Positions 16,717-28,480 of a DNA stretch of 64,000 nt are shown piece by piece; positions within the stretch are counted from its first letter, which is position 1; each line of letters opens with the position of its first letter. Source of the DNA: Promethearchaeota archaeon. GTDB taxonomy: Archaea > Asgardarchaeota > Lokiarchaeia > Sigyniarchaeales > SOKP01. Both the position numbers and the translations under genes were made by a program. The stretch is taken from positions 1 through 64,000 of the forward strand of contig JBHLON010000011.1 of the NCBI GenBank assembly GCA_048940445.1. The letters are read 5' to 3'. The notes under the pieces were generated by a model. The model saw only the letters and a program-made list of their open reading frames with translations, made no database searches and was not told where the DNA came from.

Positions 16717-17403
16717 ATGGTGAGTGAAAAATTGTTTTTTGGTAAGAGATTTAGTGGATATCATGGAGGACCTTTTTCAGGATTAGATATTTTGGTACTT
16801 TCTATCATTAAAAATTATGAAAATACGGGAATTTCGGGGTATGATATAATTCTTGAAATTAACGAGAAATTCAAACCAATGTGGAGGGCTTCTCCCGGAA
16901 CTATATATCCCTTATTAGGAAGATTAGAAGAACGAGGTTTTGTTGAAGCTGAAGAAATAGTTGATGAGAATAACCGTCAAAAGAAAATATATAAAATTAC
17001 TGACACTGGAAAAGAACGTCTTGAGGAAGTATTAAAAAATAATCTAGAATCAAGCATGAATACTCTTGGAGATTATATTAGAACAGTGGTTCAAACATGG
17101 CTTCCGAACGAAAAGAAGATTAATAGAGTAATGACATGTTTTCCATTTCATTGCTCCCCACCTCATAAAGATATCGATACAGAAGACTATTCATTACAAA
17201 ATATAAATCGTTTAGAGAGAATTATAAAGGAATTACATTTTAGTAAGCAGAGACTAATGAATCGGTTAGATGAAATTAACAACGAGATCGAATTTTATCA
17301 AAAAGTATTAGAGAATTTAAAGAAAGAAAGAGATCAAAAAACTAAAACGATTCCAATTGTAGGTGATGATGAATATGAGAGAGGTTTTGGAATAAATGAA
17401 TAA
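16717..17403 (+). CDS. PadR-family transcriptional regulator with C-terminal coiled coil
   Basis: GYDI, SPGTIYPLLGRLE and KKIYKITDTG motifs. Confidence 0.9.
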   Translation: MVSEKLFFGKRFSGYHGGPFSGLDILVLSIIKNYENTGISGYDIILEINEKFKPMWRASPGTIYPLLGRLEERGFVEAEEIVDENNRQKKIYKITDTGKERLEEVLKNNLESSMNTLGDYIRTVVQTWLPNEKKINRVMTCFPFHCSPPHKDIDTEDYSLQNINRLERIIKELHFSKQRLMNRLDEINNEIEFYQKVLENLKKERDQKTKTIPIVGDDEYERGFGINE

Positions 17404-17453
17404 TACTCACCAAAAATATGAGCAAAATATTAAAAAAACGAGAGGTATAAGAT

Positions 17454-17921
17454 ATGTGTGATGAAAAGCATCATGGAACACAAGTGTGGGCAAATTGTTG
17501 TTCCCCTAGAGATATAGCAAGAATGAAACATATGGCAGGCAGATTTATGAGACATTTTGTGGGAGGATTTGGTTCTTGGGTACCCCATAATGTAGAAGAT
17601 CTAGGAAACGAATACTTAATCACTGTTCCTTTACCCGGACGTACAAAAGAAGATGTCCAAGTATCGATAATAAACAAAAATCTTAATGTCAGTGCAAAAA
17701 AACCTAAAGTTCCTGAAAAAGAAGGAGCACAAAAGGAAGAAGAAAAAGATTTCCCTTTTCCTTTTTATGGTTTTAAATTTGTTGACGTAAATATGGACAT
17801 TCCACTTCCGGCAGATGCAAATGAGGATATGATATCTTCAAAAATGGCAAATGGTTTATTAAGGATAACTGTAGGAAAAAAGCCTGCAAAACATATCGAT
17901 ATTAATGAGAGCCAGAATTAA
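17454..17921 (+). CDS. Hsp20/alpha-crystallin small heat shock protein
   Basis: LPGRTKEDVQV, IPLP, NGLLRITV and C-terminal IDI motif. Confidence 0.85.
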   Translation: MCDEKHHGTQVWANCCSPRDIARMKHMAGRFMRHFVGGFGSWVPHNVEDLGNEYLITVPLPGRTKEDVQVSIINKNLNVSAKKPKVPEKEGAQKEEEKDFPFPFYGFKFVDVNMDIPLPADANEDMISSKMANGLLRITVGKKPAKHIDINESQN

Positions 17922-18176
17922 AGAAGAAGAGGCACTTCAGAATCACAAGTCTTCTGAACAAAAGACCATAGGAAAATAAATTTTTATTCTGAAGCACCTC
18001 AATTATTTAACATTTTTTTTTATTTATTATTTTATGGATTAATTAATATGCTTGTTTAGCTCAATTTTGGGAATATGTGACTGTTTTGATAATCTTGATA
18101 ATTTTTTCCTTAAAATTTATTATGACGTAATCCACTTTTATTGTAAATAGATTTAAATTAAAGATATCCGAGAGGC

Positions 18177-18407
18177 TTGAAAATTAGGAAAAATAGAGAT
18201 AAAAGTTCTCGACCGATTAATTTGGTGCTATTAGCTGCTTCTCTTATTATTTTTGGAGCATTTGGAATGATCTTTTTAACTCAAATGGATATACAACCAG
18301 GATGGATTTGGGAAGATTTAAGAGATATTTATCCAATGGAAATGAGTGCTTTAGAAGCTGATGATTTAAATAAAGATGGGTTTAATGAAGTTATTGGTAT
18401 AGAATGA
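18177..18407 (+). pseudogene. Probable truncated fragment of a secreted FG-GAP/beta-propeller protein
   Basis: N-terminal TM followed by a single DDLNKDGFNEVI repeat, then an immediate stop. Confidence 0.45.
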
Positions 18408-18463
18408 AAACAATAGAGGATAAAAAATAATTTTTTTTTTTAATTTAAAATAAATAAAATAAT

Positions 18464-19432
18464 TTAACGGTTTTTTTTTATTTTTCTATGCCTAATGATT
18501 AAGAATGCTGCTAGTACTACTATGATAACTGCTACAATTATTAATATCATATAAAAAAGCCAATTTGAATCTGTGCTGACAAATTTGAAGATTATATCAT
18601 CAGAACTATCTTTAACGGTAAAAGTCGATATTAAACCCTCAGTTCCGTAAGATATTTCAACCGTGTAATTTGCGATTCCATAACGGTCAAATATAAGCGT
18701 TTTTCCATTTACAGAAGCATTCTCACATCCAAGGCCATTTACAAGATTTGTTAAATAACCCTCTTGAGGTTCTGCAATTGCTAAACCATTTAGCGCCATT
18801 TGCCATAGGAATTGATCAGCAGTCAAGATTGGAAAATATGGAAACATCAATACTCCATTTAGCTTTGCTGAAAGGTTATTGTAATCATCTATCATTGGTT
18901 TAAAAAGTGAGGGATTCTGTAAGACAAACACGCCCTCAATATAACTTGGAGCTTCTTCAAAATTACCATCTGTAAAATTCCATACGGCACGCAATCCATA
19001 CCATACATTATAACTTGTTGTATAATTCGTATTAATGGTTGTTTCATTATATCCTTTTGAATTCATTGTTTCTAATAATCCAAACATAACTAGAGGACTA
19101 AAGTATTGAGGCATAAAGATTGTTGTTAAAACATCATAGGTTTGCCATGTGGTATAACTCCACCCTATGATAGTATACTTACTCTTTGCATTAGTCACAT
19201 TAGCTATCCCATCAAACCAACTATTAGGGTTTGAATTGGTATCAACTGTATTCTTCCATGCTGATTTATTATATTGTGTTATTATGAACTCTTTGGTGCC
19301 TTTCGTTAAAGTGGATTGATAGCTTGTGCTTGCTGATACAGTAGTAATAAACATGCCAAATATGATTAATCCGAGTACCAATACCGCTGTATAACGAATT
19401 TTTTTATTATTATCTAAACTTTTATTCATCAT
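18464..19432 (-). CDS. Secreted protein with C-terminal TM anchor
   Basis: Signal peptide, several N-x-S/T sequons, C-terminal TM plus basic tail; in the ABC operon. Confidence 0.7.
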   Translation of the reverse strand: MMNKSLDNNKKIRYTAVLVLGLIIFGMFITTVSASTSYQSTLTKGTKEFIITQYNKSAWKNTVDTNSNPNSWFDGIANVTNAKSKYTIIGWSYTTWQTYDVLTTIFMPQYFSPLVMFGLLETMNSKGYNETTINTNYTTSYNVWYGLRAVWNFTDGNFEEAPSYIEGVFVLQNPSLFKPMIDDYNNLSAKLNGVLMFPYFPILTADQFLWQMALNGLAIAEPQEGYLTNLVNGLGCENASVNGKTLIFDRYGIANYTVEISYGTEGLISTFTVKDSSDDIIFKFVSTDSNWLFYMILIIVAVIIVVLAAFLIIRHRKIKKNR

Positions 19433-19436
19433 CTTT

Positions 19437-20273
19437 TTACAATTGCCTCCTTTTGAATAATAATGCTGCTAATACAAAAAATACAACTATATAGACAATA
19501 AGCAATGTTGTTCCCATCTCAATCGTAGGTGTTAACCATGAACCAAATACGAAACTTCTACCCATGCCACTAAATGGAGTTTCAACGTATCGTGGATTTG
19601 GAAATGGGTTTCTTAATACCGAAGTTATAAGGTTACCTAAATATGAGACCGAATATAATGGTTCGAACTTATCTCCTAATAGTAATGTGACAATTTGATC
19701 TGCAATATTAAGACCAATTAGAAGGATTACCAATGTTATAATAATTGTTACATTTTCACTCTTTAGAAACGAGCTAAATAATGTAACAAAACTACTTAAG
19801 GTAATTACATACAATAAAGCAAAAGCATATGAATAGTAAATTCGTATATTAATAGGCCCTCCATAATAGAAGAATCCAAGTAATGCCAAAATGAAATAGT
19901 ATACAGTTACTATAAAAACAACATTGAGTAAATTACCTAAATATTTCCCCAAAATCAATTTGTATTTATTTATCTTAGGAAAAACAATAAATCCTGTTTT
20001 CTTGTCAAATTCAGAACAAATAATTCCTGAGAAAAATAAACAGGCTGCAAATAATGTCAAAAACGATATGAAAGTTAATCCATTACGAAAATAGTCTGCT
20101 TGTGTATCTGGAAGTAGATATCCAGGGATTAATTGCAATAAATACCCAACTAAAAATACTACTAAAATTGCAACTATTAGAAAGAAATAAAATTTCTTGC
20201 GCTGCTTTTTTATTTCGAATACAATTGTATCAAATATAGGTTTTATTCCAATATGTGTACTGTTATTTACCAT
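19437..20273 (-). CDS. ABC-2 type exporter permease
   Basis: Six TMs; SEFDKKTG..P...K.ILGKYL motif. Confidence 0.85.
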   Translation of the reverse strand: MVNNSTHIGIKPIFDTIVFEIKKQRKKFYFFLIVAILVVFLVGYLLQLIPGYLLPDTQADYFRNGLTFISFLTLFAACLFFSGIICSEFDKKTGFIVFPKINKYKLILGKYLGNLLNVVFIVTVYYFILALLGFFYYGGPINIRIYYSYAFALLYVITLSSFVTLFSSFLKSENVTIIITLVILLIGLNIADQIVTLLLGDKFEPLYSVSYLGNLITSVLRNPFPNPRYVETPFSGMGRSFVFGSWLTPTIEMGTTLLIVYIVVFFVLAALLFKRRQL

Positions 20274-20291
20274 TCTTTATTCCATCTCCTT

Positions 20292-21328
20292 TTAACTCTT
20301 TAAACCTTCTGGTTCATTATCTTTTACCATTTCAGAATAGACCATTTCTAATTGTGATGTCTTAGGCTGTGTATAAGAAACTACTGTAAAATCTGATTCA
20401 AAATCCTTAATTAGAACTTTAAGGATTTCACCTCTTGATTCAGCTTTACCATTGTAATAGAACTTCAATTCTTGCTTATCTGGTTTATACTTTATAGGAA
20501 TTGGTGATATTGTGGGATCTAAATCTTGATCTAAATAAGGATTAAGTCTTTCAGTTAAGCGAGCTATAATTAATCCCAGCCTTTCGGGTTCAATTGGTTT
20601 TAATAAAAGAGCATTTAACATACTTGTTTTTAACTGGGAAGCTAAATTTTCTACTGTATCAAATCCTATAATTTTTCCATAATTAATCAATGCAATTTTA
20701 TCACAAACTTCTGAAATTTCATATAACATATGAGAAGCTACAAATATTGTTTTTCCTTGAGACTGAAGTTCTCGGATGTACTTTCGTATTTCGATTCTTG
20801 CAAGTGGATCCAAACCAGTTTGTGGTTCATCTAAAATTATAATCTCAGGATCATGGATAATAGCTTGAATTATTCCCAATTTCTGAGTCATTCCTTTGGA
20901 AAAATTTTTAACATTTTCATGTTTCCATTCTGAAAGTCTAAAAAGTGCTAAAAGTTCATCAATTCTGCTATCTATTTTATCTTTTGGATAGTTTTGAATT
21001 TTAGCGAAATATTTTAGTAATTGATAAGCTGTCATATGATAGAAATTTGGGATATCTATTAAAAATCCCATATGACTAATTGTTCTCGAAACATGTTGTA
21101 AATCTTCCAATTCACCGTGATCTGTAGAAATTAAGATTCTTCCAGAATTTGGTCGTAATATTTTAGCAATCATTTTAATAGTTGTGGTTTTACCCGCACC
21201 ATTAGGACCTACTAATCCTACTGTTTCACCTCTACATACTTCAAGATTAATTTGATCGACTGCCGTAAAGTTTCCGAATCTTTTTGTTAAATTTTCTAGT
21301 TTAATTAATGCTTCCGACATTTTATTCA
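20292..21328 (-). CDS. ABC transporter ATP-binding protein
   Basis: GPNGAGKTT, FSKGM, LDEP and SH motifs; start probably at 21328 or 21319. Confidence 0.92.
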
Positions 21329-21348
21329 TTTTCCGACTTATTTTTTTG

Positions 21349-21891
21349 TTAAAGTTTATGTAATTTTGAAATTTTTTTTTCAATATTTTGGAGTTTTTGG
21401 GTTAAGATTTCTATTCGCTTTTTAATAAAGGACCTCTGAAATTCTAATGTTTTGAGTTCTTCTTTTTCAGATTTAGAACTAATTCTATTAAATGGAGGAG
21501 TTTGTCTAAGAAAATCATTTGAAAGATCTGGTAATTCATCTTTAAACCCAAATGTAGTAGCTATAATAGATCTCAGAGACTCCCTTATTTCTTGCTCCTT
21601 TTTAATCATAATATCAAGAGTCTTTTTACCAGCTTCAGTTATTTCATATAAAATAATTTTTTCATCTTCCTCTTGCTTTAAAGGTTTAATCAAGTTTTTC
21701 TCCCGTAGATTCTTTAGAATAGTATACATTGTTGAGTCAGTTGGTTCCCATGCCCCAAACGTGCGTTCTTCAATTGCATTTTTGATTTGTCGTCCATGCA
21801 TTGGCTCCTTTTCTAGAACTAGTAATGTAAGCGTACTTATGAACCCTTTTTTCATCGCTTTTTCGAACTTCTCTGCAATTTCTTCAACCAT
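21349..21891 (-). CDS. PadR-family transcriptional regulator
   Basis: PMHG, STMYTILKNL and YEITEAGK motifs; heads the ABC operon. Confidence 0.88.
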   Translation of the reverse strand: MVEEIAEKFEKAMKKGFISTLTLLVLEKEPMHGRQIKNAIEERTFGAWEPTDSTMYTILKNLREKNLIKPLKQEEDEKIILYEITEAGKKTLDIMIKKEQEIRESLRSIIATTFGFKDELPDLSNDFLRQTPPFNRISSKSEKEELKTLEFQRSFIKKRIEILTQKLQNIEKKISKLHKL

Positions 21892-21927
21892 AAAGAAGTA
21901 CAACCAAAATACTAAATATCAAAATTG

Positions 21928-21957
21928 TATCGATAATTGATATATCGATAATCGATA
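21928..21957. promoter_or_regulatory. Putative PadR operator (tandem TATCGATAAT palindromes)
   Basis: TATCGATAATTGATATATCGATAATCGATA immediately upstream of padR. Confidence 0.45.
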
Positions 21958-22191
21958 TTTAAAGTTTCTGATTCTAAAAAATTAGTTTCTTCAGATTCGA
22001 ACACATTTAGTATGATTATCTATGAATATCATTTTTAAGTTATACATTTTTGTTAATTGTTTATGTTTCCCTTACTCAGATTCTGTAGTAATCTTTAATG
22101 TGTAATACTCGTGTAATATATTCAATTATTACTCTGGGGGACCACCTAAATATTAAAAATAACTCCAATAATAACAGGTGGTATTAATAAA

Positions 22192-22383
22192 TTGAAGTTA
22201 ATAACTTGCCACGTGCCCGAAAAAATTTGAGAAATCTTCAGATTTAGGGAGGCTTATCTTCGTGGCATAGAAGAACTTGTCCAAATGAATGTTTATCCTA
22301 ATCGGTCAGAGGTTATTCGTGTAGCAATTCGGGATTTACTCAAAACAGAATTAAGTACAGTTTTACAAAAAAAACCTGAATAA
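22192..22383 (+). CDS. CopG/CdrS-like ribbon-helix-helix regulator split by a 30-nt putative intron (exons 22192..22221 and 22252..22383; 53 aa)
   Basis: SD AGGTGG then TTG start; spliced product MKLITCHVPEAYLRGIEELVQMNVYPNRSEVIRVAIRDLLKTEL...; absent from the ORF track because of the in-frame TGA at 22228..22230. Confidence 0.8.
22222..22251 (+). other. Putative BHB-type archaeal mRNA intron (30 nt)
   Basis: CCCG/AGGG central helix, 3-nt bulges AAA and AGG, intron stem AAATTTGA/TCAGATTT, exon stem TGCCACG/CGTGGCA; cutting after the 2nd nt of each bulge joins CCC GAA|GCT in frame. Confidence 0.65.
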
Positions 22384-22478
22384 ATTAATTTTTTTCTTAT
22401 ATTCTTAATTTTCCCTGACTTTCTAGTTTTACAATTAAAATAAATTATTATAATTAGTAATACATTTGAGTCATTAGT

Positions 22479-23441
22479 ATGTGGAATGTATTATTCTGGA
22501 TTTTACTCTTTATTGGAGGATATTTATTAATTTATTTTGCAGCGGATGTCTTTCTTGATAACTTAAAGGAATTATGTTTAATATATAAATTATCTCCATT
22601 CATAATTGGATTATTAGTGCTTGGGATAGATCCAGAAGAATCAATTGCTTCGATTATTGCTGCAATTAATGGATTACCATACATTGCGATAGGGAACGTC
22701 ATTGGTAATTCAATCTTTTCATTAACATTATGTTTTGCATTACCTGCATTTTTCTTTAATATAAATTTAAAATCAATATCTAAATTTTATTTTGGAATTC
22801 TGTATGGCTGTATGATTTTACTCCTTTTGAGTTTCATTTTTAATTACGGTCTATTAATTTTTGGATTGAGTGCTCTGATTCTTTATTCAATTTACATTAT
22901 AAAATCATTGAAAGATGCTTCAAAAAAAAAGGTCATCGAAATTAAAAAGATTGGTGAAGATATTGATGATGAAATAAAGAATTTCAATAAGAGGTCTAAA
23001 GCTAAAAAAATAATATTGGTGATTATTGCACTGCTTTTCATTATACTTGGAGGTGAAATACTCATTTATGCAGCTGAAAATTTAATATATTTGACTGGAA
23101 TCTCTGAAGAAATTTTTGGATTTGTAATCATTGCATTCGTCACTAATGTTGAGGAATTAACTTTGGTATTTAAATCAGTCAAAAGAGGCAGTTTTGAAAT
23201 TGGTTTAGGTGGGATGATGGGAAAAGTTATCTGGAATTTATCATTAACTTTTGGAATTAGTGGAGTAATCGCTATTGGAATAAAGTTTAGTCAAGTGTTA
23301 ATTTATAATTGGTTATTATTATTGGGATTACTTTTTTATTACCATGGAAAATCAAAAATGAAAACTTTAGGTAAAATTGATGCCTCAATCTTAATGATAT
23401 TTCTTGCAATTTTCTTGATTGTTTCTATAGTCTATAATTAA
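22479..23441 (+). CDS. Sodium:calcium (CaCA) antiporter family protein
   Basis: Two alpha-repeats (DPEE..IAIGNVIGNS; TNVEEL..GLGG); about 10 TMs. Confidence 0.85.
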   Translation: MWNVLFWILLFIGGYLLIYFAADVFLDNLKELCLIYKLSPFIIGLLVLGIDPEESIASIIAAINGLPYIAIGNVIGNSIFSLTLCFALPAFFFNINLKSISKFYFGILYGCMILLLLSFIFNYGLLIFGLSALILYSIYIIKSLKDASKKKVIEIKKIGEDIDDEIKNFNKRSKAKKIILVIIALLFIILGGEILIYAAENLIYLTGISEEIFGFVIIAFVTNVEELTLVFKSVKRGSFEIGLGGMMGKVIWNLSLTFGISGVIAIGIKFSQVLIYNWLLLLGLLFYYHGKSKMKTLGKIDASILMIFLAIFLIVSIVYN

Positions 23442-23480
23442 TCAATTAAAATTTTATTAAGTTTTATATTTCTTTTTATA

Positions 23481-24341
23481 ATGACTTTTTCGCATTTTGA
23501 TTTTAAATATATTGATGTACATTGTCATTTTTTTCCACCTCAAATATTTAAGGCTATATGGGATTTTTTTGAACGCCGTAATGACAAAGATAAGATTGAG
23601 GGGTGGCCAATTAGTTATAAATTACCAACCGTTGAGTTAATCAAGATTCTTGGAGAAAGAAACGTAGATTTTTTCACAGCATATAATTATGCTCATAAAA
23701 AAGGCGTGGCAGAATATATAAATGAATGGACGTATAAACTTGCTCAAAATAATAAGCAAATTATACCATTTGGTTGTATATGGCCTGAAGATGCTAATCG
23801 AGTTGAATATAGCAAGAAAATGTTTGAAGAATACAGTTTTTATGGTTTGAAAATACAACCTTTAGTACAAAACTTCTTTCTTAATGATGAGCGAATGGAT
23901 AAAATATATAAGATGATAGTGGATAAAGGAAAGTGGTTAACAATTCATATAGGTACAGCTCCTTATCGTAATAAGTTTGTTGGTTATAAGAATTTTCTGA
24001 AATTCCTCGAGATATATTCAAATATGAACATTATCGTAGCCCACATGGGTGCGTTCGAATACCAAAAATTTCTAAATTTAGTAGATAGATTTGAGAATTT
24101 GTATTTAGATACAGCAATGATATACATACCTAATAATATATTCCCTGAACGGAGTAGTAAGCGTCCTGGTCCTGAAAAATTATTATCTTATCAAGATAGA
24201 ATACTTTTTGGCTCAGACTTTCCAAACATTCCATATGAATATGAAAATTCTACAAAAGGATTATTAGAATTTGATCTTCCAAGGAAATTTTATGAATCTA
24301 TTTTTTACAATAACGCAAAAAAATTATTTAAACTTAAATAA
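23481..24341 (+). CDS. Amidohydrolase-2 family protein
   Basis: DVHCH, HIG, AHMG and FGSDFP motifs. Confidence 0.88.
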   Translation: MTFSHFDFKYIDVHCHFFPPQIFKAIWDFFERRNDKDKIEGWPISYKLPTVELIKILGERNVDFFTAYNYAHKKGVAEYINEWTYKLAQNNKQIIPFGCIWPEDANRVEYSKKMFEEYSFYGLKIQPLVQNFFLNDERMDKIYKMIVDKGKWLTIHIGTAPYRNKFVGYKNFLKFLEIYSNMNIIVAHMGAFEYQKFLNLVDRFENLYLDTAMIYIPNNIFPERSSKRPGPEKLLSYQDRILFGSDFPNIPYEYENSTKGLLEFDLPRKFYESIFYNNAKKLFKLK

Positions 24342-24353
24342 TAAATTTATCCA

Positions 24354-25193
24354 TTAATATTGCAGCATTACTAAACTTAAAGCCATAATGGCCATACCAG
24401 TGATTATTCCCAATATTGAGTAGTGTTCTTTAGCGAAAGATCGAGAGACGGGTAATAATTCATCTAAAGAGATATAAACCATTATTCCACCTACAATGCC
24501 TAACATTGCACTCAACACATTTTCGTTTATAAAGGGAAATAAGACTACCCAAGTAATAAGTGCTCCTAAAGGCTCACTTATCCCCGATAAAAATGACCAC
24601 TTGAAAGCTTTCTTCTTGTTTAAGGTATATAAATAAATAGGTACCGAAACTGCAATTCCTTCGGGTATATTATGTAAGGCTATAGCGATTGTTAATAAAA
24701 TACCAAGATTTAATTGAGTTAGAGCTCCTATAAATGTCGCCATACCTTCAGGGAAGTTGTGTATAAATACTCCAAAGAAGATGAATATTGAAGTTTTTGC
24801 TAGATTTATCTCTTTTTTTTCACCTCGATGTTGATATCTTTTGCGGTGTCTATGACCGTAATGAAGGTGAGGTTGATGTTCTCCATTCTTATTTATGAGA
24901 TACTCAATAGAATCTTCAAATTCATATTGATGAGATACCAACATATCAATCCCCAACATAATAATCATACCTAAAAAGAAAAAGATTAACCCTAAAAAAA
25001 GATCATATGTCCTAATACTTGCTTGAAGTAATTCTACAAAGGAAATAAGAATCATAACTCCCGCAGAAAATCCCATAATAAATGAAAGAAACTTAGGCTT
25101 AGGATTTTTCATAAAAAATGAAATAAAACTTCCTATTGTAGTTGATAAACCTGCTAGCAAACTTAAAAGAATTGCAAATAAAACAGATTCCAT
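24354..25193 (-). CDS. zupT: ZIP-family zinc/divalent metal transporter
   Basis: HNFPEG and HNIPEG motifs, His-rich loop, SLDELLP. Confidence 0.9.
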   Translation of the reverse strand: MESVLFAILLSLLAGLSTTIGSFISFFMKNPKPKFLSFIMGFSAGVMILISFVELLQASIRTYDLFLGLIFFFLGMIIMLGIDMLVSHQYEFEDSIEYLINKNGEHQPHLHYGHRHRKRYQHRGEKKEINLAKTSIFIFFGVFIHNFPEGMATFIGALTQLNLGILLTIAIALHNIPEGIAVSVPIYLYTLNKKKAFKWSFLSGISEPLGALITWVVLFPFINENVLSAMLGIVGGIMVYISLDELLPVSRSFAKEHYSILGIITGMAIMALSLVMLQY

Positions 25194-25330
25194 TATTGTT
25201 CTTTTTCCTTTGATGTAGTTCCTTTACTATTTATAGAAAATTGAATTTACTTTTTCAAGTAAATTTTAATAGAATTCATAGCATAAAATGATTAATATAC
25301 CTTTTTAAATAGGAAAAAATTATATCTAAT

Positions 25331-25344
25331 TTAGGCGCGTCTAA
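25331..25344. promoter_or_regulatory. DtxR/MntR-like palindromic operator upstream of zupT
   Basis: TTAGGCGCGTCTAA near-perfect palindrome resembling the TTAGG-N4-CCTAA core. Confidence 0.45.
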
Positions 25345-25578
25345 TTATCAATAAATTATTTTTCTATTTAAAGCTTATGAAAGATTAAAAGATGTACAAA
25401 TTAGCCTTAATGAACTAATTAAATTATCTGATACTCTTCCTAAATTATTATAAAACTCCTGTGAAAGGAAAGAGATAATATTTTCTGATACTGAATGTTA
25501 TTTTTTAATCTAAATAATATATATAATATTGAAACATTTCAATATTTAAAATTATAGCTGATAAAATAGGATTTTAAC

Positions 25579-26604
25579 GTGAAACTCTTATCTACTAACG
25601 ACAAAATTTTCTTTTTTGAACGAAATTTTTTTACTTTAGATGGCTTATGGATGATTAAGACTGAAGAAGAAACAAATTGGGAGACCGCATTAAATATTGA
25701 CTTAATAGTGTGGAAAAAGCTACTAAAAATCATCTTTCAAAGACTTAAAGAATACTTAGATATACAAAGTAATAATTTAATTGACTTCATTAAGATTCTA
25801 ACTTTTAGATGGTCTGTGGAAGGTTGGGACTATGAAATTTTGTTTCCAAATAAGTCCCAAATTGAGATTATTATTAAAAATTGCCCCTATTATGCAGCAA
25901 TGGATCGAAATCCAGATCGTCATGAGAAGATACCTCTAATTTGCAGAAATGTTTGTATACCTTTATATGAGTCTTTAGTTGTTGGATTCAGTAAAGACAT
26001 AAAGATAAGTAGAAGAAAGTTCAAAGGATTGGGTGATCATAATTGTAATTTTATCCTTGAACAAATTGACTATTCAATGCCTTCCAGAATTATATTACAA
26101 AAAGCTCTAAATAAAGCAGTAGATAGAAAGGGTAAATTATTTTATTTTGAAAAAAATTTTAGAACTCTTGATGGATTATGGATCGTTGAAGTAGAAAACA
26201 AACTAAATTTCGCTATAGCACTAAAACTTGATATTGTTGTATGGAAAGAACTATATGAAATAATATTTAGGAGAGTAAGCAAATATTTGAATATAAGGGG
26301 GCATTCTCTAAAAGATCTTACTCAAATTTTATCATTTATTTGGAATTGCGAAGGGATTTCTTATGAGATAATTGAAAAGGATGAAAGAGAGATTATAATT
26401 AATGTCAAACAATGTCCTTATCTTGAGGCCATGCAAAGAAATCCAGAACGCCAAGATAATATAGTATCAGTATGCAAAGACATATGTTTCTCTTACTTGG
26501 AACCCGTAATTCAGAATTTTAATCCGAAGATCATATTAAAACGAACAAAGTCTAAGGGAACTGGTGATCATATATGTGATTTTCGTTTTAAATTAAACGA
26601 ATAA
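25579..26604 (+). CDS. Tandem-duplicated DUF6125/V4R-like domain protein
   Basis: Two internal repeats FE.NF.TLDGLW...CP(Y)..AM.RNP.R...C...C...GD(H).C.F. Confidence 0.65.
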   Translation: MKLLSTNDKIFFFERNFFTLDGLWMIKTEEETNWETALNIDLIVWKKLLKIIFQRLKEYLDIQSNNLIDFIKILTFRWSVEGWDYEILFPNKSQIEIIIKNCPYYAAMDRNPDRHEKIPLICRNVCIPLYESLVVGFSKDIKISRRKFKGLGDHNCNFILEQIDYSMPSRIILQKALNKAVDRKGKLFYFEKNFRTLDGLWIVEVENKLNFAIALKLDIVVWKELYEIIFRRVSKYLNIRGHSLKDLTQILSFIWNCEGISYEIIEKDEREIIINVKQCPYLEAMQRNPERQDNIVSVCKDICFSYLEPVIQNFNPKIILKRTKSKGTGDHICDFRFKLNE

Positions 26605-26620
26605 CATTTTTTAGACTCAG

Positions 26621-28480
26621 TCAATATATTTTTTGAAAGAAATCTATATGTTTTTTTGTTGTAGATATGATGAGACTTCTTTCCTTAGTAGAAATTAAAT
26701 ATAGTTCGAAGATGATATTATCAATTTCTTTTATATATTGCTTACATTTTTCTGTAAGTACTCCATTCTGTTTATAAAGCTCAGTGGAAATCTTATCAAC
26801 TCTATAATTTATTTTTTGTTTTACATCTTGTTTACAATGGATTATTGGAAGGTGTCTTATCATATATTGATTCAAATTAATTGTAGTGTTTTGTTGATTA
26901 TTAATTCCATAAATGCAATAGAATTGCAATAGAATTGAGTTTAGTAAGGCGCATAGATATTTCAATTCAGAAATATTAGAATGAAGAAGAGAATAAATTG
27001 ATGAAGTAAAACATACTTTTTCTATGGTAAATAAAGTTTGAGGATAAATGTTATTATGCTTAATAAGTAATTTAGGACTTGTATAATATTCAAAATCATT
27101 TCCCTTTAGAACTTTGGCATTTATTTTTTCTAAATCTAAAGATCTTTCTCGATGAAAGTAAAAATAGGTGAAATCTTCTTTAGCATTAATGAAGAAACAA
27201 GAATTATCAAGACTTTCTTCTATTAGGTTTTTAACTACTTTTAATCCTTTCGCTTCTTCACCTCTTATCATCTTTGGAAAGTCTTGAATGTTCAGATAAT
27301 TTAAATCACCCTCTTTTTCAATCTTGTAAACTAAATCCAATAAATTTTGGGTCGGTTTAATTCTGATTCGATTCATTAATAAAGTCTTAGAAGAACAATA
27401 TGGACAGAACTTTTCAAAAGTATAAACAAATACTTTTCTTGGTTTATCAGACAAATAACAGTCGTTATTTTGGCAAAGTCTAAGGGTATCTACTTTTTGA
27501 TTTTTATATAGGATGATTTCAGTATTAGGATATTTATAGACTCTTAAATCTTTAAAATAATTTGCCTTTTTCTCATAAATCATAATTTGTACCTCATTAG
27601 TAGCTGCTTTAAAAAGATTAGGTCCGATATCATAGATTTTCAGCAGATTCGATTTTGATAACAGACTATTTCTAAACATTATATAGCCTTGCCTAAGTAG
27701 AAAGCTCTTAGGGACTAAAAAAGCCACAATCCTATCTGACCAATTAATTGCTTTTAAGAGAAAAGCACAATAAATATCGTTGTAAAACAAATTTTCTTTT
27801 TTAAGGACTTTCTTATCAACTTCCTTAAGAATATTGCCATATGGTGGATTGCCAATAATAATATCAAAATTAGCAGATTGGAGTTCAATCAAACTATTCT
27901 TTAAATTTAAATTTGAATCTAAAATAGAGAGTGATTTATTTAATAGGGTTAGATTATCATTATTTAGCCATCTTAAGATTTTTAATTTACTTAATTTTAA
28001 TGCCAATTCATTTATTTCAAAACCGTAGAGATTTTTTAATATTTTAATTTTTAAATAAGAGTCATCTTTGAAATTAAGTTTTACCATTAGATCATAAAGA
28101 ATCTCAGCAGCACTTATGATAAACACTCCAGAACCGCATGCAGGATCGCATATCTTGATATTTGATAATACTTCTTTAACTCTATTCAAGAACTTTAAGT
28201 CTAAAGAGAATAAGTCGTCAAATTTAGTTATTTTTAATGGTCCTAATACATTACTCAGTAATGAGATTAAAGCCTTGGAGAAAATGAATCCCGAAATCTC
28301 TTTTTGAGTATAAAATACACCTTCCTTTTTCCTATTAACATAATTCTTCTCAAAGATTTTTTCAAGATTATCAATAAGAGTTAGGTTTTCTTTTAGTTGA
28401 ATGCATTTGTTAAATCTAATTGAATCTAGGATAGAATTATATAATTGATTAATCTCTTGGAGATTTTCTGAATTGTTCAT
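26621..28480 (-). CDS. N6-adenine DNA methyltransferase (TaqI/Eco57I-like) with C-terminal target recognition domain
   Basis: GVFYT, DPACGSG, IIGNPPY motifs; TaqI_C-like KYLCALLNS...HLPI. Confidence 0.85.
   Translation of the reverse strand: MNNSENLQEINQLYNSILDSIRFNKCIQLKENLTLIDNLEKIFEKNYVNRKKEGVFYTQKEISGFIFSKALISLLSNVLGPLKITKFDDLFSLDLKFLNRVKEVLSNIKICDPACGSGVFIISAAEILYDLMVKLNFKDDSYLKIKILKNLYGFEINELALKLSKLKILRWLNNDNLTLLNKSLSILDSNLNLKNSLIELQSANFDIIIGNPPYGNILKEVDKKVLKKENLFYNDIYCAFLLKAINWSDRIVAFLVPKSFLLRQGYIMFRNSLLSKSNLLKIYDIGPNLFKAATNEVQIMIYEKKANYFKDLRVYKYPNTEIILYKNQKVDTLRLCQNNDCYLSDKPRKVFVYTFEKFCPYCSSKTLLMNRIRIKPTQNLLDLVYKIEKEGDLNYLNIQDFPKMIRGEEAKGLKVVKNLIEESLDNSCFFINAKEDFTYFYFHRERSLDLEKINAKVLKGNDFEYYTSPKLLIKHNNIYPQTLFTIEKVCFTSSIYSLLHSNISELKYLCALLNSILLQFYCIYGINNQQNTTINLNQYMIRHLPIIHCKQDVKQKINYRVDKISTELYKQNGVLTEKCKQYIKEIDNIIFELYLISTKERSLIISTTKKHIDFFQKIY

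What the first reader, a model, noticed from the sequence alone, without database searches (positions are those of the whole stretch)
22192..22383. Candidate bulge-helix-bulge intron inside an Asgard protein-coding gene (CdrS/CopG-like RHH regulator)
Seen in sequence: after an SD and a TTG start the frame reads MKLITCHVPE, then 30 nt containing an in-frame TGA (22228), then AYLRGIEELVQMNVYPNRSEVIRVAIRDLLK, a typical ribbon-helix-helix continuation. The insert folds as: exon stem TGCCACG(22207)/CGTGGCA(22261); 4-bp helix CCCG/AGGG (3 G-C pairs plus one G.A mismatch); bulge AAA; intron stem AAATTTGA/TCAGATTT; second bulge AGG. Established: archaeal EndA cuts after the 2nd nt of each 3-nt bulge. 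Applying that rule removes 22222..22251 and yields CCC GAA GCT TAT (P-E-A-Y) in frame. Protein-coding BHB introns are best known from crenarchaeal cbf5. Inference: this is a stop-containing mRNA intron that gates expression of a regulator resembling the cell-division regulator CdrS, i.e. splicing-dependent gene control in a close relative of eukaryotes, invisible to gene callers. Caveats: the stem next to the second bulge is weak (relaxed BHB/BHL-like), and the junction could shift by up to 3 nt with the same protein.
Basis: partly seen in the sequence, partly recalled or inferred. Interest (0 to 1): 0.93.

Follow-up and report, generated by a model that had tools for sequence, protein, structure and literature searches.

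The report
tRNA-type mini-intron in Asgard regulator gene
A 30-base insert with a stop codon splits a small DNA-binding regulator gene of a Lokiarchaeia (Asgard) archaeon; it is shaped and evolves like an intron that the tRNA-splicing enzymes cut out of the mRNA, which the papers I could search document inside a coding sequence only for the crenarchaeal cbf5 gene, although no spliced transcript was seen here.

Summary
Observation confirmed. The insert (22222-22251, TGA at 22228) lies between codons 10 and 11 of a 53-aa ribbon-helix-helix gene; about 100 of 109 family genomes have the two exons joined, giving exactly the predicted protein. Seventeen distinct alleles carry a 30-40-nt insert here. 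All break the gene (8 shift the frame), yet the exons stay under purifying selection (pN/pS about 0.12-0.14). All fit one bulge-helix-bulge (BHB) cutting rule, including one allele slid by one base. The exons of insert-bearing alleles pair with each other far more strongly than those of intronless alleles (-11.0 vs -3.2 kcal/mol). The genome encodes a two-subunit EndA and RtcB. An EndA-spliced mRNA intron is about 88% likely; splicing itself was not observed, and this allele's motif is a relaxed one. 'Gating a CdrS cell-division regulator' is not supported: most orthologues, including both closest relatives, lack the intron, no ftsZ is adjacent, and paralogues score equally against CdrS. Intron alleles are scattered over the species tree, which suggests lateral spread plus precise loss. 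The scan has noted this intron class in other Lokiarchaeia genes before.

The parts
22176..22182 (+). Shine-Dalgarno sequence AGGTGGT
   Evidence: Seen in sequence; GGTG/GGGG-type motif at this place in most orthologues
22192..22221 (+). Exon 1: TTG start and 10 codons, the beta-strand (DNA-reading ribbon) of the RHH protein
   Evidence: Contiguous with exon 2 in about 100 genomes; RHH_1 model positions 2-38 are matched only with this exon, 8-38 without
22207..22213 (+). 5' arm of the exon-exon outer helix (Cys6-His7-Val8 codons)
   Evidence: 7 Watson-Crick pairs with 22261-22267; two of them are G.U in the intronless sister G017
22216..22222 (+). 5' strand of the central helix (CCCG) and 5' bulge AA^A; predicted cut after 22221
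   Evidence: Shared in-frame register in 16 of 17 alleles, slid by +1 in the 17th
22222..22251 (+). 30-nt intron: hairpin with in-frame TGA (22228-22230), then AGGG (3' strand of the central helix) and AG; predicted cut after 22251
   Evidence: homologous 30-40-nt inserts in 16 other alleles
22252..22383 (+). Exon 2: 43 codons and TAA, helices A and B of the RHH protein
   Evidence: Pfam RHH_1 E 4e-6; 1 non-synonymous vs 7 and 11 synonymous differences to the two sister alleles over the whole coding sequence
22261..22267 (+). 3' arm of the exon-exon outer helix (Arg14-Gly15-Ile16 codons)
22384..22410 (+). T-rich tract after the stop, a likely archaeal terminator (inference)
   Evidence: Seen in sequence; similar tracts after orthologues

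Best explanation
The gene is intact and makes a normal 53-aa ribbon-helix-helix transcription factor, but only after its mRNA is spliced. The pre-mRNA folds so that the two exons clamp each other (outer helix), the exon tetramer CCCG pairs with the end of the insert, and the insert forms a hairpin. The two-subunit splicing endonuclease EndA cuts after the second base of each bulge (AA^A and AG^G) and the ligase RtcB joins the exons, giving Pro-Glu-Ala-Tyr. Unspliced mRNA yields a 12-aa peptide. The intron is most likely a tolerated passenger, not a switch: it is lost precisely in some lineages and seems to be passed between lineages. Shown: insert, position, frame disruption, selection on the exons, conserved pairing, presence of the enzymes. 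Inferred: cleavage, ligation, the exact junction, and the direction of gain or loss.
For: (1) Intronless orthologues give the exact spliced product. (2) All 17 insert alleles (30x3, 31, 32x3, 39x6, 40x4 nt) truncate the unspliced frame at 12-30 aa; 8 shift the frame. (3) Purifying selection persists: pS 0.225 vs pN 0.027 among the 12 alleles of the 32-40-nt clade, pS 0.53 vs pN 0.075 among all 17; this genome's branch has 3 synonymous and 0 amino-acid changes. (4) Central helix 4/4 in 9 alleles and 3/4 in 8, against 1% for random intron tetramers, with a C-G to U-A compensatory change in G099. (5) In G106 the motif is slid by one base (CUGA/UCAG, 4/4) and the BHB rule still restores the conserved Ala codon, whereas cutting at the usual place would give Thr. 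(6) Exon-exon duplex -8.5 to -12.4 kcal/mol in all 17 intron alleles vs median -2.5 in 85 intronless alleles, reached with different codons in different lineages; the two intronless sisters are intermediate (-7.9, -6.4), as expected after recent loss. (7) Two EndA paralogues (one with the catalytic Tyr-His-Lys motifs) and RtcB are encoded. (8) The same genome has similar inserts in fwdA and an Sm/LSm gene. (9) One insert allele recurs in more than ten separate assemblies.
Against: No spliced transcript or protein was observed. This genome's allele is among the least canonical (3 pairs plus G.A; weak helix next to the 3' cut; out-of-frame registers with similar pair counts), and it is known from one assembly only. 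Not every two-subunit EndA cuts relaxed motifs well (PMC12397907 on M. kandleri). The alleles are not independent (about five lineages), and the duplex window was chosen after looking at the folds, so the nominal p-value overstates.
Confidence: 0.88

Rival explanations
1. As above, but splicing is a regulated switch that gates the level of a cell-division regulator, in the manner of HAC1/XBP1.
For: The insert falls after the DNA-reading strand and kills the unspliced product; a relaxed motif could make splicing slow or conditional; the best NCBIfam hit is CdrS.
Against: About 92% of family genomes lack the intron, sisters lost it precisely, and presence is scattered over the species tree. No ftsZ linkage. 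CdrS score far below cut-off and matched by paralogues. Similar inserts occur in unrelated genes such as fwdA and Sm. The weak TTG start is not gene-specific: the sister's rpoB starts with ATA.
Confidence: 0.15
2. No splicing: ribosomes start at an alternative codon inside or before the insert and make an RHH protein without its native first strand, as gene callers annotate (49-60 aa).
For: Open frames contiguous with exon 2 exist: from an ATC in this genome (P0034), from an ATG in 40-nt alleles (P0097), from a TTG in one 32-nt allele (P0079).
Against: The alternative starts differ in codon, frame and peptide between alleles and are not at the conserved SD-start position. They lose RHH_1 positions 2-7. 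Exon 1 stays conserved as protein in intron alleles (pN 0.022 vs pS 0.35). It does not explain the paired structure.
Confidence: 0.04
3. The allele in this genome is a pseudogene (decayed intron no longer spliced, or a one-off insertion) or an assembly artefact.
For: Weakest canonical motif of the set; single assembly; four paralogous RHH genes might cover the function.
Against: No amino-acid change on this branch; synonymous changes strengthen the exon helix; the insert is homologous to those of other lineages (alignment scores above 300 shuffled hairpins for G008, G013, G086).
Confidence: 0.05
4. Translational recoding: the TGA is read through (selenocysteine) or the ribosome hops over the hairpin.
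For: The insert here is 30 nt, in frame, with a single TGA.
Against: Eight alleles shift the frame by +1 or +2, and G099 has TGA and TAG; a 10-residue insertion between strand and helix is seen in no intronless orthologue; hopping would not predict the one-base slide in G106.
Confidence: 0.03

Closest known systems
BHB intron of the cbf5 pre-mRNA in Crenarchaeota (Watanabe 2002; Yokobori 2009, PMC2738675)
   Same: Short (cbf5: 16-44 nt; here 30-40 nt) ORF-less intron inside a coding sequence; often relaxed BHB; cut after the second bulge base by a hetero-oligomeric EndA; patchy gain and loss.
   Different: cbf5 splicing is confirmed by cDNA, this is not. Different phylum (Promethearchaeota/Lokiarchaeia) and gene (a 53-aa regulator). 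Here the intron is in only 9 of 109 genomes, on alleles that are not one clade, and other genes of the same genome carry such inserts.
BHB intron in the 5' UTR of Haloferax HVO_1309 (Schwarz 2020, PMC7714728)
   Same: EndA substrate in an mRNA; 46 nt removed.
   Different: Untranslated region, so no frame is restored; shown in vivo and in vitro.
Non-canonical tRNA introns of Asgard archaea (PMC11291895; bioRxiv 10.64898/2026.10.13.758758)
   Same: Same superphylum, same motif and enzyme, repeated gains, route of arrival unknown.
   Different: Those lie in tRNA genes of Atabeyarchaeia/Freyarchaeia; term searches of the two papers showed no passage on mRNA introns.
CdrS (haloarchaea, PMC7439475) and aCcr1 (Sulfolobales, PMC9976878) RHH cell-division regulators
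   Same: Small stand-alone RHH protein with the PNRSE.IR motif; CdrS is the best NCBIfam hit.
   Different: 37.7 bits vs cut-off 100; no cdrS-ftsZ synteny; one of five similar paralogues; lies between a padR-ABC operon and Na/Ca-exchanger or amidohydrolase genes.

Membership tests
Archaeal EndA-spliced (BHB) intron | Insert absent from homologues, whose removal restores the conserved product | tested here: met
   About 100 intronless orthologues; sister protein differs by one residue from the spliced product
Archaeal EndA-spliced (BHB) intron | Canonical motif: 4-bp central helix with two 3-nt bulges, flanked by helices | tested here: inconclusive
   This allele 3/4 pairs and a 3' internal loop (relaxed, BHL-like); 9 of 17 alleles 4/4; G099 and G106 close to canonical
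Archaeal EndA-spliced (BHB) intron | Cuts after the second bulge base give an in-frame junction | tested here: met
   In frame in all 17 alleles, including the +1 slid G106 allele; competing out-of-frame registers exist in single alleles
Archaeal EndA-spliced (BHB) intron | Structure kept by compensatory change while sequence varies | tested here: met
   C-G to U-A in the central helix; exon-exon helix kept with different codons; -11.0 vs -3.2 kcal/mol
Archaeal EndA-spliced (BHB) intron | Host encodes EndA able to cut relaxed motifs, and an RNA ligase | tested here: inconclusive
   Two EndA paralogues and RtcB present; substrate range not measurable here
Archaeal EndA-spliced (BHB) intron | Spliced RNA or in vitro cleavage | not testable with these tools
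CdrS | Score above the curated cut-off of the CdrS model | tested here: not met
   NF058555 37.7 bits vs 100; the model is haloarchaeal, so this is a strict test
CdrS | Gene adjacent to ftsZ | tested here: not met
   0 of 167 loci (flanks 0.5-2.5 kb); neither ftsZ of this genome has an RHH gene within 1.5 kb
CdrS | Regulates cell-division genes | not testable with these tools
   No binding or expression data
CopG-type ribbon-helix-helix protein (PF01402) | Full RHH_1 match above the gathering score | tested here: met
   34.4 bits vs 20.5, model positions 2-38, on the sister protein P0096
Mobile homing intron | Intron-encoded endonuclease | tested here: not met
   Inserts are 30-40 nt

The most novel reading that the evidence does not exclude
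Lokiarchaeia splice many protein-coding mRNAs with the tRNA machinery, and these ORF-less mini-introns spread sideways between species and genera by short gene-conversion tracts that carry the flanking exon bases needed for pairing. This locus records the process: a foreign-looking junction in G086, a one-base slide in G106, precise losses in G017 and its sister. That would give a testable route for how archaeal introns arrive and an Asgard precedent for IRE1/HAC1-like non-spliceosomal mRNA splicing.
Probability: 0.35. Interest if true: 0.88.

Novelty: new variant of a known kind. Interest (0 to 1): 0.7.

Why it matters
In the papers I could search, splicing inside an archaeal coding sequence is confirmed only for cbf5 (PMC2738675; PMC7714728). 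[quoted passage not shown] This locus is useful because intron-plus and intron-minus alleles sit side by side in close relatives: gain, loss, sliding and the co-adaptation of exon codons can be read directly, and a 90-nt transcript with two small enzymes tests it in vitro.

Tried and rejected
Sequencing-run search for window 17400-27300, kind rna: no RNA holder listed, so no reads were laid; this is no evidence either way. Genome-wide BHB motif scans with a frame-rescue filter gave no excess over shifted-junction controls. The control is confounded by sliding registers and the scan is insensitive, so I do not use it as a count; it did recover this insert, fwdA and an Sm gene. Search for a donor of the hairpin elsewhere in the genome: 28 loose pattern matches, none visibly in a BHB context besides this one. 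Rfam: nothing above threshold. The sigma-70 promoter scan is not suited to archaea. PDB: only weak NikR-like matches. Looking for a full-length protein from an insert-bearing lineage in transcript-derived assemblies: the 53-aa cluster member P0096 comes from intronless genomes. A single origin of all intron alleles on the exon tree is rejected (AU p 1.7e-5; short alignment, and recombination weakens the test). A weak start codon as gene-specific control was rejected. The spliced protein has no reference and was not typed in; the sister protein P0096 stood in for it. Three pattern searches and two look-ups failed on syntax.

Full report
Observation. The sequence is as described. After an AGGTGGT Shine-Dalgarno sequence and a TTG at 22192, ten codons are followed by 30 bases (22222-22251) with TGA at 22228, then 43 codons that match the ribbon-helix-helix family RHH_1. 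The minimum-energy fold has the exon stem, three C-G pairs of the central helix and a 9-bp intron stem, but alone it is only 1.6 standard deviations better than shuffles. Relatives are named Promethearchaeota/Promethearchaeia, that is Lokiarchaeia.

The product is right. Across family f1, 109 genomes gave a clear orthologue covering the junction and about 100 have the exons joined as Pro-Glu-Ala-Tyr or a close variant. The nearest genome, G017, is intronless and encodes a 53-aa protein that differs from the spliced product at one residue. With exon 1 the protein matches RHH_1 positions 2-38; the products that gene callers annotate from starts inside the insert match only 8-38 and lack the DNA-reading strand.

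The insert is not a one-off. Nine genomes in two genera, plus metagenome contigs and further assemblies, give 17 distinct insert-bearing alleles of 30, 31, 32, 39 and 40 nt at this site. One allele recurs in more than ten assemblies. Every insert breaks the gene: the unspliced frame ends after 12-30 residues and eight inserts shift the frame. Yet the exons are under purifying selection: pS 0.225 vs pN 0.027 among the twelve 32-40-nt alleles, and 7 and 11 synonymous against 1 non-synonymous difference between this genome and its two sisters, the one amino-acid change being on the sisters' side. This argues against pseudogenes, and the mixed lengths argue against read-through.

The structure behaves like an EndA substrate. 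One in-frame register, exon tetramer paired with the intron end and cuts after the second base of each bulge, is shared by 16 alleles. The central helix has 4 of 4 pairs in nine alleles and 3 of 4 in eight, against 1% for random intron tetramers, with a C-G to U-A compensatory change in G099. In G106 the whole motif is slid by one base, is perfect there, and the rule restores the conserved alanine codon. The exons of intron alleles pair with each other at -8.5 to -12.4 kcal/mol, against a median of -2.5 in 85 intronless alleles, and different lineages reach this with different codons. These are about five independent lineages and the window was chosen after seeing the folds, so I rely on the lack of overlap, not the p-value. 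The allele in this window is among the least canonical: a G.A mismatch in the central helix, a 3' cut in an internal loop, and out-of-frame registers of similar pair count. Relaxed motifs are cut by some archaeal endonucleases but not equally by all (PMC12397907). The genome encodes two EndA paralogues, one with the catalytic Tyr-His-Lys motifs, and RtcB, consistent with the two-subunit enzyme reported for Asgard genomes (bioRxiv 10.64898/2026.10.13.758758). The residue assignment rests on my own knowledge of the family.

Other genes. My scan recovered similar inserts in fwdA and in an Sm/LSm gene, where removing 31 nt restores a complete Sm protein and Pfam sees a broken match. The scan showed no excess over its controls and is not a census. 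Earlier notes of this scan report the same class in many Lokiarchaeia genes; apart from fwdA I did not check them, and they are leads only.

History. On an rpoB tree the nine intron-bearing genomes are scattered among intronless ones. On the gene's own tree they are not one clade, yet most intron cores resemble each other more than shuffled hairpins do. Part of the scatter is exchange of the whole coding sequence between species while the flanks stay put: G005 vs G020 is 90% identical upstream, 72% in the gene, 84% downstream, while G005 vs G013 is 80, 96 and 58%. Intronless alleles do the same, so this is a property of the gene. The two intronless sisters keep a remnant of the exon helix (-7.9 and -6.4), which favours loss over a fresh gain here, though a pre-existing pairing that invited insertion is not excluded. 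G086, in another genus, is closest to this genome around the junction (33 of 39 bases) and to its own genus further out (87 vs 70 of 99). That suggests transfer of the intron with short flanks, but convergence under pairing constraints could also produce it.

The regulator. The best NCBIfam hit is haloarchaeal CdrS at 37.7 bits against a cut-off of 100, and two paralogues score the same. CdrS is characterised by its place beside ftsZ (PMC7439475); none of 167 loci holds ftsZ and neither ftsZ of this genome has an RHH neighbour within 1.5 kb. It is a CdrS-like RHH protein of unknown target. A splicing switch is unlikely when about 92% of orthologues do without the intron. Start codons vary (ATG, TTG, GTG, ATA, ATT, ATC), but the sister's rpoB also starts with ATA, so this is not gene-specific control.

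Known cases. Splicing inside an archaeal coding sequence was confirmed only for cbf5, with others merely predicted (PMC2738675); a Haloferax 5' UTR intron is the second mRNA case (PMC7714728). Seven literature searches listed no paper on mRNA introns in Asgard archaea; the library lacks most subscription journals.

Verdict. An EndA/RtcB-spliced mRNA intron, 0.88; regulatory gating of a division regulator, 0.15. New variant of a known but very rare kind; interest 0.7. Splicing remains to be shown.

Noticed in passing
G000:C26 minus strand, about 3343 (locus L081): An Sm/LSm gene is split by a 31-nt hairpin insert with a perfect central helix (AGGG/CCCU); removal by the BHB rule restores a full Sm protein. 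An Sm gene is the ancestor family of spliceosomal core proteins.
   Followed up: partly
G000:C47 plus strand, 64002-64031: fwdA carries a canonical 30-nt BHB insert with a stop codon; noted earlier by the scan.
   Followed up: partly
RHH orthologues L005-L076; rpoB locus L194: Non-AUG starts are common in this family: of 109 RHH alleles 22 start with ATA, 13 ATT, 2 ATC, 18 TTG, 2 GTG, behind a conserved SD; G017 rpoB has ATA where this genome has ATG.
   Followed up: partly
L013, L012, L010, L014, L009, L071, L053: The RHH coding sequence is swapped between species from SD to stop while the flanks follow the species tree; three allele types are shuffled within one clade of the genus, and G141's allele groups with another genus.
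   Followed up: partly
L038 (G086), L044 (G073), L057 (G068), L045 (G062): Partial or full second copies of the RHH gene lie just downstream, and downstream neighbours vary widely, suggesting a rearrangement or integration hot spot.
   Followed up: no
whole genome G000: ARAGORN finds only 13 tRNA genes in a 93% complete genome, several with odd introns, suggesting many tRNA genes are hidden by non-canonical introns.
   Followed up: no
window 21915-21960: Repeated ATCGAT palindromes directly upstream of the divergent padR gene, a candidate operator; similar motifs noted by the scan in relatives.
   Followed up: no
window 26621-28480: 619-aa ORF with DPACGSG and NPPY motifs, an adenine DNA methyltransferase of restriction-modification type.
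   Followed up: no
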